Shown here: in pieces, positions 21,989-23,548 of the stretch
Layout of the letters: each line of letters begins with the position of its first letter
Position numbering within the stretch: position 1 is the first letter of the stretch
The notes under the pieces: generated by a model
Told to the model about the DNA's origin: nothing
Databases searched by the model: none
The model's input: only the letters and a program-made list of their open reading frames with translations
Made by a program: the position numbers and the translations under genes
Assembly (NCBI GenBank): GCA_963582255.1
Contig: CAUZRD010000003.1
Span: 1 to 32,881, forward strand
Direction of reading: 5' to 3'
Length of the DNA stretch: 32,881 nucleotides
Origin: Alphaproteobacteria bacterium
GTDB lineage: Bacteria; Pseudomonadota; Alphaproteobacteria; Rhizobiales; TMED25

Positions 21989-22537
21989 CTATATATTATC
22001 ATGAGCCGGAACAGCTCCTAGCTTAAACGGTTTGATAGCCTTGATAACTCCGAAATGAATCGCGATAAAGGCCCCTATCTCCATGATCTGAGCTTCGCTA
22101 AAATACTGCTTCATCTCGTCATAAAATGCAGTGTTAACCTTCGATGCATCCAGAAACATCTGTTCCGAAAAAGCCAGAGCGCACTGTTCTGCCGCAGTAA
22201 ACAAGGGTGAGGAATCATAGTCTCCGCAACCAACGTCAATCATCTCCTCGGTTAGCCCCAAAGCCAGAGCCTTGCGCGAACGTAGCGAGGCAAAATATTC
22301 ATCCTCAGCAAATCTCGCCAGTTGAATGCGAATTATTTCCTTTAGCTTATGGTCCACACCGCCTTCATAATGTGAATGTAGTATAGCCCCTAGCGCAGCC
22401 TTCGCTTGCGCGGGTTTGTGCGCAAGAATTTGGCCAAAGCGGGCATCTGGTACGCCCAATTCATCGCAGCGCGTGATTAATTCACGCAATTCTCTATCTT
22501 TGATCTCGTCCATCGGAACGGGTGTAATGAAGGACAT
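21989..22537 (-). CDS. AhpD/carboxymuconolactone decarboxylase-like protein lacking CxxC; paralog of the upstream putative selenoprotein
   Basis: DHKLKEIIRIQLAR...GLTEE...FTAAEQCALAF...YFSEAQIMEI AhpD-like pattern. ATG 22537 overlaps the upstream TGA stop (TGATG). Confidence 0.85.
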   Translation of the reverse strand: MSFITPVPMDEIKDRELRELITRCDELGVPDARFGQILAHKPAQAKAALGAILHSHYEGGVDHKLKEIIRIQLARFAEDEYFASLRSRKALALGLTEEMIDVGCGDYDSSPLFTAAEQCALAFSEQMFLDASKVNTAFYDEMKQYFSEAQIMEIGAFIAIHFGVIKAIKPFKLGAVPAHDNI

Positions 22538-23178
22538 CAATTTTCTCCCACAGCGCATGTTCCCGTGGGGTTATCCTTTAGCGAAACCGGCACATCGCCA
22601 TAAAGACTTGCCGACTCTTCCTGATCAATCAACCTACCATCGGGCGCAAACATCGGATAAAAATTTAACGACCCAAAGAAGGTATGAAAGCCGAGATTGA
22701 AGAATAGAAACATCGTCAGTTCGGCTAAATCTTCATCGCTATAATATCGGCGCAGTTCATCAAACATCGATTGGTCGATTGATTCCGGGTTTTCAGAAAC
22801 CAGGTCAACATATCCCAGAACCGCCTTCTCCGCTTCAGAAAAAGCAGCGCTTTCAGTATAAGAATTAACCCCTTCGTCCAGCAGCTCTTCGGTTAGTCCT
22901 AACCCCTTCGCCGAAGCGGAACGAACATTACCTCAGTAGCTGCAGTTAGCTGCCCGCGACAGATTAATCCGGATGATTTCTTTTAGCTTGTGGTCAAGGT
23001 CACCAGCATTAAATACACTGGTCCAAGCGAGATAAGCTGCCTCGGTAAGATCAATATTATGACCCATGATCGAGTGAAAACCAGGATCCGGTGCACGTAA
23101 CTCAAGGCTTCTCTCAATGTACGGTCTGAGTTTGGTTTTCTTCAGCTTGTCTAAATCAAGCATCGTGACATTCGCCAT
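22537..23178 (-). CDS. Putative selenoprotein: AhpD/CMD-like protein of 213 aa with C79-x-x-U82 (in-frame TGA at 22933-22935)
   Basis: Track ORFs 22933..23235 and 22537..22767 share a frame. Read-through gives ...INLSRAANCSY-U-GNVRSASAKGLGLTEELLDEG...AEKAVLGYVD...MFDELRRYYSDEDLAEL with no other stop. It is collinear with the neighbouring paralog and has a GGAG RBS before ATG 23178. Confidence 0.88.
22885..22932 (-). promoter_or_regulatory. Candidate bacterial SECIS element
   Basis: 3' of the UGA there are two hairpins: CGC-UUCG-GCG (loop 17 nt after the UGA) and GGUUA-GGAC-UAACC (G-initiated loop 33 nt after the UGA). Confidence 0.5.
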
Positions 23179-23212
23179 AATTCTTCTCCAGATAAACATC
23201 CACCTATGTCGG

Positions 23213-23548
23213 TTAGTCTCGAGCATGCGTTTCAATGATTTTTTTTAGCACCTGCATACGGTCTACACCGATCCTAGTTTCGACCACGTTACCATTTTTT
23301 ATAAACAAGAGTGTTGGCAAAGACCTTACTCCAAACTGCCTCATCAAGCCCGGATTTTTATCTGCATCAACCTGGCCAATTAGGACATCATCGGGAACAT
23401 ATGCCCGCAACTGGCAAAGAATTTTGGTCAATTGTCGGCATGGCGAACAGGTCGTGGACCAAAAATCAACCACCGTCACTCCCTGACGACTTAGAACCAT
23501 GTCAGCAAAATTTTTGTCATCAAAAGTAGAGAGGCTAGTGTCCGTCAT
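23213..23548 (-). CDS. Thioredoxin family protein (CSPC active site)
   Basis: VVDFWSTTCSPC, VDADKNP, FGVRSLPTLLFIKNG. Start is probably ATG 23548. Confidence 0.92.
   Translation of the reverse strand: MTDTSLSTFDDKNFADMVLSRQGVTVVDFWSTTCSPCRQLTKILCQLRAYVPDDVLIGQVDADKNPGLMRQFGVRSLPTLLFIKNGNVVETRIGVDRMQVLKKIIETHARD

What the first reader, a model, noticed from the sequence alone, without database searches (positions are those of the whole stretch)
21989..23548. Candidate new redox system: thioredoxin + Sec-AhpD-like protein + catalytically blank paralog
Seen: three co-oriented genes are tightly packed. A thioredoxin (CSPC) is followed after a 34-nt gap by the CxxU protein, then by a paralog joined through a TGATG stop/start overlap. 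No AhpC/peroxiredoxin gene is in the window. Inference: this is a dedicated electron relay from thioredoxin to a selenenylsulfide centre, possibly in a hetero-oligomer of active and inactive subunits. It may act on a specific substrate rather than as a classical AhpC reductase. Coupling of the third gene to the true stop would make its translation depend on Sec read-through, and so on selenium supply. I do not know of a characterised system with this layout.
Basis: partly seen in the sequence, partly recalled or inferred. Interest (0 to 1): 0.85.

Follow-up and report, generated by a model that had tools for sequence, protein, structure and literature searches.

The report
Two-subunit selenoprotein with its thioredoxin
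A selenocysteine-containing AhpD-like redox protein is almost always encoded with an overlapping sister gene that has lost both redox residues, and often with its own thioredoxin, so this common but unstudied selenoprotein probably works as a two-subunit enzyme.

Summary
On the minus strand lie a thioredoxin (CSPC), a 34-nt gap, a CMD/AhpD-fold gene with an in-frame TGA (C79-S-Y-U82), and a paralog whose ATG shares one base with the upstream TGA stop and reads D79-E-Y-F82.

The TGA is selenocysteine:
- The genome has selA, selB, selD and tRNA-Sec.
- The TGA is kept in 61 of 62 related metagenome loci that cover the site. None has Cys.
- Four codons after it are invariant at synonymous sites in 54 of 54 distinct sequences and form a hairpin.

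The selenoprotein and the blank paralog are a conserved unit:
- 73 of 74 loci have the selenoprotein directly upstream of the paralog.
- 65 to 67 of 75 junctions overlap.
- 14 database proteins are natural fusions of the two.
- A complex model scored 0.95 against 0.02 for the best control.

The thioredoxin is frequent (29 of 42 loci) but not universal.

CxxU AhpD-like proteins have been known as an abundant marine selenoprotein family since 2005, with no known function. I found no paper describing the redox-dead partner, the coupling or the fusions. Verdict: a new variant of a known kind, probably a thioredoxin-recycled heteromeric selenoenzyme. Its substrate is unknown.

The parts
23213..23548 (-). 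Thioredoxin-fold gene, 111 aa, active site C34-S-P-C37 (W30-S-T-T-C-S-P-C). An extra, non-housekeeping thioredoxin.
   Evidence: Translation. Pfam PF00085 scores 74.9 bits against a cut-off of 23.5. The TIGR01068 equivalog scores 82.2, below its 96.8 cut-off. Another thioredoxin scores above that cut-off on contig C8, and a thioredoxin reductase lies on C49. Homologs with W-x-x-x-C-[VAIS]-[PLS]-C sit directly upstream of the selenoprotein in 29 of 42 metagenome loci.
23179..23212 (-). 34-nt spacer between the thioredoxin stop (TAA) and the selenoprotein ATG, with GGAG about 7 nt upstream of the ATG.
   Evidence: Sequence. Estimated spacers in related loci are mostly 29-51 nt. RNA-library contigs X15 record 3 and X16 record 7 bridge it.
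22537..23178 (-). CMD/AhpD-fold selenoprotein gene ('ACT'), 213 aa plus TGA stop. Motif C79-S-Y-U82-G-N-V-R86, with a conserved C-terminal tail F-Y-P-M-F-x-P-D-G-R-L.
   Evidence: Translation with TGA=U. Pfam CMD PF02627 scores 31.3 bits against a cut-off of 23. The fold model has pLDDT 74.9, and its best PDB matches are Bmp8, PA0269 and Atu0492. An ortholog 80% identical, with the same TGA, is in G003.
22933..22935 (-). In-frame TGA read as selenocysteine (U82). The partner Cys79 codon is at 22942..22944.
   Evidence: TGA is present at this site in 61 of 62 metagenome loci that cover it, with 0 Cys. Distant single-gene homologs in genus g3 have K-C-E-Y-C-G-N-Q-R-S there. selA, selB, selD and tRNA-Sec are in the genome.
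22896..22926 (-). SECIS-like hairpin starting 7 nt after the TGA. The upper stem is CCGCUUC / GAAG(G)GG with loop GGC, and there is a 4-bp lower stem. In this window one upper-stem position is a G-G mismatch.
   Evidence: Codons +6 to +9 (GCT TCG GCG AAG) show no synonymous change in 54 of 54 distinct sequences, while other invariant Ala and Ser codons use 3-4 codons. 93.7% of cells are paired, against 23-54% when the partner is slid. One pair shows C-G, U-G and U-A.
22535..22539 (-). TGATG junction. The stop of the selenoprotein gene and the ATG of the paralog share one base.
   Evidence: Sequence. Of 75 related junctions, 35 are T[AG]ATG, 30 are [AG]TGA, 2 are TTGA and 8 have short gaps. RNA-library contigs X15 record 2 and X16 record 6 bridge it.
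21989..22537 (-). Redox-dead paralog ('BLK'), 182 aa. D79-E-Y-F82 (22292..22303) stands in place of C-x-x-U. E and R of the active-site frame are kept.
   Evidence: Translation. It is 34-35% identical to the selenoprotein. 349 database relatives were found, and 114 of the 120 fetched match the script's A-R-x-x-x-x-x-x-x-x-x-x-R-S frame, nearly all as D-x-Y-F. D is invariant in 48 of 48 aligned sequences. The profile hits CMD-family PDB chains.

Best explanation
The three genes encode a cytoplasmic thiol/selenol redox module.

The middle gene is a true selenoprotein of the CMD/AhpD fold. Its C79-x-x-U82 pair can cycle between a selenol/thiol and a selenenylsulfide. Its UGA is decoded through a hairpin placed just downstream.

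The last gene is a paralog that has replaced Cys with an invariant Asp and Sec with Phe, while keeping the surrounding frame. It is made from an overlapping start. It most likely pairs with the selenoprotein through the pseudo-twofold interface that this fold uses. The result would be a heterodimer, or a higher assembly of heterodimers, with one redox pocket and one non-redox pocket.

The first gene is an extra thioredoxin (C-x-P-C). It is the likely reductant that reopens the selenenylsulfide, fed by the genome's thioredoxin reductase.

The most likely chemistry is reduction of a small oxidised or electrophilic substrate, with a hydroperoxide the first guess.

Shown here: Sec decoding features, conservation of the pair, junction overlap, natural fusions, the fold.
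Inferred: physical heteromer in the cell, thioredoxin as electron donor, the substrate, and any selenium dependence of partner synthesis.
For: Sec decoding:
- selA, selB and selD score above their cut-offs, and tRNA-Sec is present, all on contig C4.
- The TGA is kept in G003, G075, G119, G159, G885 and G1031 and in 61 of 62 metagenome loci, with 0 Cys.
- There is a hairpin with frozen synonymous sites.

Pairing of the two subunits:
- 73 of 74 loci have the selenoprotein upstream of the paralog.
- 65-67 of 75 junctions overlap.
- 14 of 14 database proteins of 276-371 aa consist of the post-Sec part of the selenoprotein, a 32-83 aa low-complexity linker (13 measured; in the fourteenth the script found no linker boundary), and the paralog.
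- Complex prediction scored 0.95 with a best control of 0.02. That mark was reached by 58 of 80 solved complexes and by 2 of 110 mismatched pairs. The three runs agree in at least 89% of contacts, and the partner's pLDDT is at least 92.
- The paralog is under purifying selection: 28 invariant columns in 48 sequences, including D at the Cys position.

Thioredoxin:
- It lies directly upstream in 29 of 42 loci, plus 5 shorter loci with a partial copy, and in G003, G885 and G1031.
- The genome also has a standard thioredoxin and a thioredoxin reductase.

Fold:
- The CMD/AhpD fold is supported.

Expression hint:
- RNA-library contigs bridge both gene junctions.
Against: - No biochemical test exists for any step.
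- The complex model used a stand-in pair, not the window's own selenoprotein: a database ortholog 60% identical to it with W at the Sec site, together with the paralog of locus L133, whose own selenoprotein is 85% identical to that ortholog.
- CMD-family homo-oligomers are in the PDB, so the pass may reflect likeness to those. A homodimer was not modelled for comparison.
- Thioredoxin is missing next to the pair in 13 of 42 loci and in 3 genomes.
- The paralog has its own GGAG site, so coupling need not be obligatory.
- The active-site stretch of the monomer model is only moderately confident (block pLDDT 64-80).
- The hairpin shows little covariation: one pair, 5 cells, and 10 of 500 shuffles reach the observed score. 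The window's own 71-nt fold is not more stable than shuffles (z = -0.25).
- RNA-library contigs do not prove transcription, or a single transcript.
- One locus (L130) has the paralog without an intact selenoprotein gene.
Confidence: 0.6

Rival explanations
1. Classical AhpD role. The selenoprotein (with its partner) is not the terminal enzyme. It relays electrons to a peroxiredoxin, as AhpD does for AhpC in mycobacteria.
For: The fold and the C-x-x-[C/U] motif are of the AhpD type. In 4 loci I read a full AhpC/TSA-family selenoprotein (G-H-W-U-P-Y-C) just downstream of the paralog. The corresponding ORF cluster occurs in 8 of the 84 sequences compared: 80 metagenome loci, 3 genome loci and the window. 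The genome holds 6 AhpC/TSA matches elsewhere, one of them with a TGA. A GOS read with neighbouring Prx-like 1 and AhpD-like 2 genes is reported in PMC2398784 (passage seen).
Against: No peroxiredoxin is in the window or in most loci. The Prx-like cluster is in 8 of 84, and those loci also carry sel genes, so they may simply be selenoprotein islands. A thioredoxin in the operon could reduce a peroxiredoxin directly, which would make a relay redundant. The His that follows the second Cys in M. tuberculosis AhpD (recalled from memory) is Arg here.
Confidence: 0.15
2. A different chemistry on the same scaffold, such as reductive dehalogenation (Bmp8-like, and analogous to the Sec-dependent deiodinases), or reduction of another electrophile such as a sulfoxide, a disulfide or a selenium compound for SelD.
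For: The best structural matches are the Bmp8 debrominase chains 6OHJ and 6OHI (E 2.2e-5, TM 0.67/0.75). They also match by sequence (E 4.4e-8). The source is seawater. selD lies downstream in 9 loci and selA lies divergent upstream in 10 loci. Strict use of Sec with no Cys form suggests chemistry for which Cys does not suffice.
Against: Identity to Bmp8 is only 24-25%, and PA0269 'AhpD' matches about as well. No halogenase or bmp-type neighbour was seen in the window or among the conserved neighbours. Proximity to sel genes is common for selenoprotein genes in general (my own knowledge).
Confidence: 0.15
3. The paralog is an independent protein, or a chaperone or regulator. The selenoprotein works as a homo-oligomer like other CMD-family proteins, and adjacency reflects a tandem duplication only.
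For: CMD-family entries in the PDB hold several identical chains: 6 in 2GMY, 9 in 2IJC, 12 in 3C1L and 12 in 6K40. The modelled interface is pseudo-symmetric (residues 37-59 and 123-172 in both chains), so homodimers could use it too. Some loci carry a second selenoprotein copy after the paralog (L098, L100 and G885).
Against: A plain duplicate would not stay adjacent, overlapped and conserved across sequences only 51-84% identical. It would also not be fused to its neighbour in 14 protein clusters. D and F at the old redox positions are themselves conserved.
Confidence: 0.08
4. The TGA is a plain stop. The 'selenoprotein' would then be two short ORFs or a pseudogene.
For: Table 11 ORF calling splits it. 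Public gene calls give truncated fragments of 118-135 aa.
Against: Protein conservation runs straight across the TGA. The TGA is kept in 61 of 62 loci. There is a frozen hairpin after it, and the full Sec machinery is present.
Confidence: 0.02

Closest known systems
AhpD-like (COG2128/YciW-type) CxxU selenoprotein family of marine metagenomes (Zhang, Fomenko & Gladyshev 2005; Zhang & Gladyshev 2008)
   Same: CMD/AhpD fold, CxxU motif, bacterial SECIS just after the UGA, marine abundance. There were 27 sequences in the Sargasso Sea, and 299 'AhpD-like 1' sequences made it the fourth largest family in GOS. No function is known (passages seen in PMC1088965 and PMC2398784; reviews PMC9312934 and PMC13188914).
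   Different: The passages I saw treat it as a single protein with many Cys homologs (902 in GOS). Here the protein always comes with a redox-dead paralog, no Cys form was found (0 of 62), and the gene scores below the cut-offs of TIGR01926 (33.3 against 81.8) and NF053654 (58.6 against 310). I could not compare sequences with the published examples, so identity with 'AhpD-like 1' is likely but untested. Supplements were closed.
Mycobacterium tuberculosis AhpD with AhpC
   Same: Same fold family and a C-x-x-C-type centre on a helix N-terminus. A conserved Glu lies 12 residues before the first Cys (E67 here). In AhpD one chain carries two CMD-like repeats of which only one has the redox motif (recalled from memory). 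A heterodimer or fusion of an active and a blank subunit would imitate that.
   Different: Sec replaces the second Cys, and Arg (R86) replaces the His four residues on. The structural match to 1GU9 is weak (E 1.3, TM 0.45). No AhpC is adjacent. The likely reductant is a thioredoxin, not the lipoamide system (the latter recalled from memory).
Bmp8 debrominase (PDB 6OHI, 6OHJ)
   Same: It is the closest solved structure by Foldseek (E 2.2e-5) and has a similar length (187-195 aa). It is a thiol-based CMD-family enzyme of marine bacteria.
   Different: Identity is 24-25%. Two identical chains are deposited. There is no Sec, and no bmp-type gene context here.
Pseudomonas aeruginosa PA0269 'AhpD' (2IJC, 2O4D, 7XW1) and Agrobacterium Atu0492 (2GMY)
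   Same: They are the best sequence matches among solved structures (E 2.8e-10 to 1.3e-9), covering the core at residues 48-159. TM scores normalised to the target are 0.73-0.84.
   Different: They are shorter (145-165 aa) single-gene proteins. They lack the conserved C-terminal tail and have no blank partner as far as the entries show.

Membership tests
Bacterial selenoprotein (UGA decoded as Sec) | The in-frame TGA is conserved among orthologs, with coding conservation on both sides. | tested here: met
   61 of 62 metagenome loci and 6 other genomes keep the TGA. 61 columns are invariant across 39 sequences spanning the site.
Bacterial selenoprotein (UGA decoded as Sec) | A stem-loop (SECIS) lies immediately downstream of the UGA. 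| tested here: met
   The hairpin is at 22926..22896. Codons +6 to +9 are frozen in 54 of 54 sequences. 93.7% of cells are paired, against at most 54% in slid controls. Covariation is weak (1 pair). That the loop and spacing fit the bSECISearch rules is recalled from memory, not tested.
Bacterial selenoprotein (UGA decoded as Sec) | The genome encodes SelA, SelB, SelD and tRNA-Sec. | tested here: met
   TIGR00474 scores 542.9 bits, TIGR00475 scores 384.8 bits and TIGR00476 scores 284.4 bits, all above their cut-offs. tRNA-SeC (tca) is found. All are on contig C4.
Bacterial selenoprotein (UGA decoded as Sec) | Homologs carry Cys at the Sec position. | tested here: met
   This holds only for distant homologs (26-29% identity): K-C-E-Y-C-G-N-Q-R-S in genus g3 genomes. 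No Cys form exists among close relatives (0 of 62).
CMD / AhpD-like superfamily (Pfam PF02627) | Match to the family profile above the gathering score, and the fold. | tested here: met
   The selenoprotein scores 31.3 bits against a cut-off of 23, and its fold matches CMD-family structures. The paralog scores 17.8, below the cut-off. Its profile nevertheless hits CMD-family PDB chains at about 1e-8, and it is 34-35% identical to the selenoprotein.
Classical AhpD (M. tuberculosis type) | A C-x-x-C centre with a His four residues after the second Cys (recalled from memory). | tested here: not met
   The motif is C79-S-Y-U82-G-N-V-R86, and the Arg is invariant in 39 of 39 sequences.
Classical AhpD (M. 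tuberculosis type) | An adjacent or partner AhpC peroxiredoxin. | tested here: not met
   There is no AhpC/TSA match on the window's contig. A Prx-like selenoprotein cluster is present in 8 of the 84 sequences compared.
NCBIfam TIGR01926 'peroxidase-related enzyme' and NF053654 'YciW-related (seleno)protein' | Score above the curated cut-off. | tested here: not met
   33.3 against 81.8, and 58.6 against 310. In the genome search, 26 against 81.8.
Thioredoxin (TIGR01068 equivalog; Pfam PF00085) | Thioredoxin fold and a W-C-G-P-C active site. | tested here: inconclusive
   The Pfam domain is met (74.9 bits). The equivalog cut-off is not (82.2 against 96.8). The motif is C-S-P-C here and mostly C-V-P-C in relatives, with the Trp three residues further upstream.
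Obligate heteromer of active and inactive paralogs | Strict co-occurrence, coupled translation, fusion forms, physical binding. | tested here: inconclusive
   Co-occurrence is 73 of 74. Overlap is 65-67 of 75. There are 14 fusions. The model scores 0.95 against 0.02. Binding itself cannot be tested with these tools.

The most novel reading that the evidence does not exclude
A widespread bacterial selenoenzyme is an obligate heterodimer of a Sec-bearing subunit and a pseudo-enzyme paralog with a conserved Asp/Phe 'ghost' pocket. Sec cannot be swapped for Cys in it, synthesis of the partner is gated by successful Sec insertion, and the chemistry is not AhpC recycling. It could be a thioredoxin-driven dehalogenase-like or other electrophile reductase.
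Probability: 0.2. Interest if true: 0.8.

Novelty: new variant of a known kind. Interest (0 to 1): 0.62.

Why it matters
AhpD-like CxxU proteins are among the most abundant selenoproteins in the ocean, yet none has a known function (PMC2398784, PMC9312934, PMC13188914; passages seen).

If this form works only with a redox-dead sister subunit, expressing the selenoprotein alone would probably fail or mislead. The pair, or a natural fusion, would be the right construct, together with its own thioredoxin.

It would also be a clear bacterial case of an enzyme-pseudoenzyme pair built on a selenoprotein, and a family in which no Cys form was found. That bears on the old question of when Sec is indispensable.

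There is an annotation point too. The gene is split or truncated in public gene calls, or read with W at the Sec site, and no NCBIfam model reaches its cut-off. The family is therefore under-counted.

Tried and rejected
- A single-sequence fold of the 71 nt after the TGA was no more stable than shuffles (z = -0.25). RNAalifold in my script returned only a trivial consensus. The case for the hairpin therefore rests on frozen synonymous sites and on pair counts.
- The Rfam scan of 21800-23950 gave only a chance snoRNA-like hit below threshold.
- The promoter and terminator scan found fewer promoter-like sites than the shuffles did, and nothing usable.
- The search for related loci on genome contigs with the selenoprotein found only the G003 record.
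- A phylum-level sample searched with a fusion protein found nothing beyond G000 (0 of 400 other genomes), so I could not obtain DNA of a fused gene.
- A search for longer proteins (376-2000 aa) found no full-length fusion. All 14 fusions are known only from their post-Sec part.
- I considered that the four full-length database proteins might be Cys or Trp forms. They carry W exactly at the TGA position, and I read that as gene calling under a TGA=W code.
- L130 looked like a paralog without a partner. It holds an unrelated ORF joined to the last 29 codons of the selenoprotein, so it is either a rearrangement or a chimeric contig.
- The window's neighbours (FMO-like monooxygenase, amidase, TauD, CoA-transferase III, HpcH aldolase) are not shared with other loci and give no functional lead.
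- Parts of the stretch without cover in the RNA-library contigs are not used as evidence.
- Paper supplements were closed. Sequence lists of the published AhpD-like selenoproteins could therefore not be compared.
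Full report
**What is there**

All three genes lie on the minus strand.

- A thioredoxin-fold gene runs from 23548 to 23213. It encodes 111 aa with active site C34-S-P-C37 and a TAA stop.
- After a 34-nt spacer with a GGAG, a second gene starts at 23178. It runs through an in-frame TGA at 22935..22933 to a TGA stop at 22539..22537. 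Read with TGA=U it gives a 213-aa protein with C79-S-Y-U82-G-N-V-R86.
- The ATG of a third gene (22537..22535) shares one base with that stop (TGATG). The gene ends at 21989 and encodes 182 aa.
- Counted from its Met, the third protein has D79-E-Y-F82 exactly where the second has C79-S-Y-U82.
- The two proteins are 34-35% identical.
- Pfam places the second in the CMD family (PF02627, 31.3 bits against a cut-off of 23). The third scores weakly (17.8). The first is a thioredoxin (74.9 bits).
- No NCBIfam model reaches its cut-off for the two CMD proteins. The best is NF053654 'YciW-related (seleno)protein', at 58.6 against 310.
- No AhpC/TSA match lies on the window's contig.

**Is the TGA selenocysteine?**

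- The genome carries selA, selB and selD above their curated cut-offs, with a tRNA-Sec between them, all on contig C4.
- A MAG of the same GTDB family (G003; its record is titled 'Hyphomicrobiales bacterium') has an ortholog 80% identical with the same TGA.
- I scanned metagenome contigs with a profile of the third protein. 398 of 462 matched stretches encode a relative, and the best 80 were kept. 62 of those loci have at least 420 nt upstream. 61 of the 62 show C-[STV]-Y-U-G-N-V-R with TGA, and none has Cys.
- Distant single-gene homologs (26-29% identity) in small genomes of a sister genus have K-C-E-Y-C-G-N-Q-R-S at the site.
- In 54 distinct sequences, the four codons at +6 to +9 after the TGA (GCT TCG GCG AAG) never change. 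Other invariant Ala and Ser codons in the same gene use three or four synonymous codons.
- These bases form the core of a hairpin (CCGCUUC-GGC-GAAGCGG) with a 4-bp lower stem. In the window it lies at 22926..22896. 93.7% of cells pair, against 23-54% when the 3' partners are slid. One pair alternates between C-G, U-G and U-A.
- Covariation is thin, and 10 of 500 shuffles reach the observed score. The single-sequence fold is not unusually stable. The argument therefore rests on the frozen synonymous sites.
- In the window itself one upper-stem position is a G-G mismatch.
- Contigs from RNA libraries keep the TGA.

I regard Sec decoding as established as far as sequence evidence can take it.

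**The pair is the conserved unit**

- The third protein has 349 database relatives. Of the 120 fetched, 114 match the frame my script searched for (A-R followed by 10 residues and R-S), and nearly all of those read D-x-Y-F at the old redox positions.
- In an alignment of 48 of them, 28 columns are invariant. These include the Asp that replaces Cys. This protein is not a decaying copy.
- 73 of 74 metagenome loci with at least 150 nt upstream show the selenoprotein gene directly before it. The exception, L130, has an unrelated ORF joined to the last 29 codons of the selenoprotein.
- Of 75 junctions, 35 are T[AG]ATG, 30 are [AG]TGA, 2 are TTGA, and 8 have short gaps.
- Among genomes:
  - 5 of 401 sampled in the order carry the paralog, counting G000. 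All 5 have a TGA-bearing selenoprotein gene upstream.
  - 2 of 400 others sampled in the class carry the full triplet.
  - 0 of 400 others in a phylum-wide sample matched.
- The module is therefore rare among species-representative genomes but recurrent in metagenomes.

**Evidence for a physical heteromer**

A protein search with the selenoprotein returned 45 proteins:

| Count | What they are |
|---|---|
| 4 | Full-length, with W at the Sec position. I read these as TGA=W gene calls. |
| 26 | Fragments that start after the Sec codon. |
| 1 | Paralog-like protein. |
| 14 | Proteins of 276-371 aa: the post-Sec part of the selenoprotein, a variable low-complexity linker (32-83 aa in the 13 where my script could delimit it), then the paralog with its D-x-Y/H/C-F motif. 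|

- Several of the 14 start with M-R-S-A-S-A-K. That is the Val codon of G-N-V-R-S taken as a start, so the Sec codon should lie just upstream. I could not fetch their DNA to confirm this.
- Such fusions are classic evidence that two proteins act together.
- Complex prediction scored 0.95 with a best control of 0.02. That mark was reached by 58 of 80 solved complexes and by 2 of 110 mismatched pairs. The three runs agree in at least 89% of contacts, and the partner's pLDDT is at least 92.
- The interface is pseudo-symmetric. It uses residues 37-59 and about 123-172 of both chains. It also touches residue 77 of the selenoprotein and residue 78 of the paralog, next to the C-x-x-U and D-x-Y-F motifs.
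- Caveats:
  - The tool takes code-11 proteins only, so I used a database ortholog (60% identical to the window's protein, W at the Sec site) with the paralog of locus L133. L133's own selenoprotein is 85% identical to that ortholog.
  - The alignments were my own.
  - CMD-family homo-oligomers are in the PDB, so the pass may reflect that likeness.
  - I could not model homodimers for comparison.

**The thioredoxin**

- A homolog lies directly upstream of the selenoprotein gene in 29 of 42 loci with at least 1050 nt upstream, and partly in 5 shorter loci. It also does so in G003, G885 and G1031.
- It was not found within the flanks held (about 1.2-1.5 kb) in the three genomes of family f58.
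- Its motif is mostly W-x-x-x-C-V-P-C, and C-S-P-C in the window.
- It scores below the thioredoxin equivalog cut-off. The genome has another thioredoxin above that cut-off, and a thioredoxin reductase.
- It is therefore an extra, often dedicated, but dispensable member.

**Other neighbours vary**

| Neighbour | Loci |
|---|---|
| selA, divergent upstream | 10 |
| selD-like, downstream | 9 |
| Zinc-type dehydrogenase | 14 |
| Molybdenum hydroxylase | 9 |
| AhpC/TSA-family ORF cluster | 8 |

Four members of the AhpC/TSA cluster were read in full as G-H-W-U-P-Y-C selenoproteins.

**Fold and active site**

- The AlphaFold model has mean pLDDT 74.9 and pTM 0.71.
- It matches Bmp8 debrominase best (6OHJ, E 2.2e-5, TM 0.67/0.75), then PA0269 and Atu0492. 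M. tuberculosis AhpD matches only weakly (1GU9, E 1.3).
- Sequence search against the PDB agrees.
- E67, twelve residues before C79, and R86, four after U82, are invariant.
- From memory, the corresponding positions in M. tuberculosis AhpD are a Glu and a His. The paralog keeps both E and R.

**Expression**

- Six metatranscriptome runs hold part of the stretch.
- Among the four that I laid, contigs bridge the thioredoxin-selenoprotein spacer (X15 record 3, X16 record 7) and the selenoprotein-paralog junction (X15 record 2, X16 record 6).
- The tool warns that DNA can be present in such libraries and that a contig across two genes does not show one transcript. This is a weak hint only.

**How it most likely works**

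- Shown: a Sec-decoded CMD-fold protein; a conserved, overlapped and sometimes fused redox-dead paralog; a frequent private thioredoxin.
- Inferred:
  - The two CMD proteins form a heterodimer, or an assembly of heterodimers, with one C/U redox pocket and one D/F pocket. This would resemble the two-repeat, one-site layout that I recall for M. tuberculosis AhpD.
  - The selenol attacks an oxidised or electrophilic substrate. Cys79 resolves the intermediate to a selenenylsulfide. The thioredoxin reopens it, fed by thioredoxin reductase and NADPH.
  - The overlap would keep the subunits near 1:1. It could also lower partner synthesis when ribosomes stop at UGA82. However, the paralog has its own GGAG site, so this is open.
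- A hydroperoxide is my first guess for the substrate.
- The rivals are a relay to a peroxiredoxin, or a different reduction such as Bmp8-like dehalogenation.

**Comparison with what is known**

- CxxU AhpD-like proteins (COG2128) were reported as new selenoproteins from the Sargasso Sea in 2005, with 27 sequences. With 299 sequences and 902 Cys homologs, they were the fourth largest family in GOS (PMC1088965, PMC2398784; passages seen).
- Reviews of 2022 and 2026 still list them without a function. They mention only Prx-like/AhpD-like gene neighbours (PMC9312934, PMC13188914; passages seen).
- BSepDB lists the family (PMC13326102).
- Four full-text searches found no paper on a partner paralog, a heteromer, or a thioredoxin operon for these proteins. 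Subscription journals and supplements were not searchable.
- Whether the window's protein belongs to the published 'AhpD-like 1' group could not be tested.

**Verdict**

Noticed in passing
G000 contig C4, about 17344-22936 (loci L001, L008, L009): The Sec machinery is clustered: selD, tRNA-Sec, selB and selA all lie on the minus strand of one contig.
   Followed up: partly
G000 contig C2:33756-34124 (locus L139): A second candidate selenoprotein in the same genome: an AhpC/TSA-family match with one in-frame TGA.
   Followed up: no
L064:909-1388, L066:1199-1678, L078:1212-1691, L088:4184-4666: An AhpC/TSA-family selenoprotein with G-H-W-U-P-Y-C lies just downstream of the paralog in some loci. 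Those loci (for example L064 and L088) also carry selA, so they look like selenoprotein islands.
   Followed up: partly
L098:4171-4791, L100:803-1423, L147 (G885) 723-1391: A second copy of the selenoprotein gene follows the paralog (active-blank-active). It has changes in the N-terminal part (G-A-L-A-M-L instead of G-F-H-A-M-M) but the same C-S-Y-U-G-N-V-R.
   Followed up: no
L130:329-856: An unrelated ORF is joined in frame to the last 29 codons of the selenoprotein and is followed by an intact paralog. This is either a rearrangement or a chimeric assembly.
   Followed up: partly
Proteins P0124-P0127, P0140-P0167: Public gene calls mishandle this family. Four entries read W at the Sec codon. 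26 are fragments starting after it, and two NCBI MAG fragments are named 'carboxymuconolactone decarboxylase family protein'. The family is under-annotated.
   Followed up: partly
L014-L020 (genus g3 genomes of about 1.3-1.4 Mb, same GTDB family): Single-gene CxxC homologs (K-C-E-Y-C-G-N-Q-R-S, 219-225 aa open frames) have no adjacent paralog or thioredoxin within 1.5 kb. This is a Cys-type sister subfamily.
   Followed up: partly
window 17696-21976 and 23898-26047: The flanking genes are unrelated catabolic enzymes: TauD-family dioxygenase, amidase, a convergent FMO-like flavin monooxygenase ending 12 nt from the paralog's stop, CoA-transferase III and an HpcH-type aldolase.
   Followed up: partly
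window 22064, 23038, 23256, 23298: Four single-base differences (G>A, T>C, A>C, T>C) are shared by contigs of several seawater RNA-library runs. This indicates a closely related strain in other samples.
   Followed up: no
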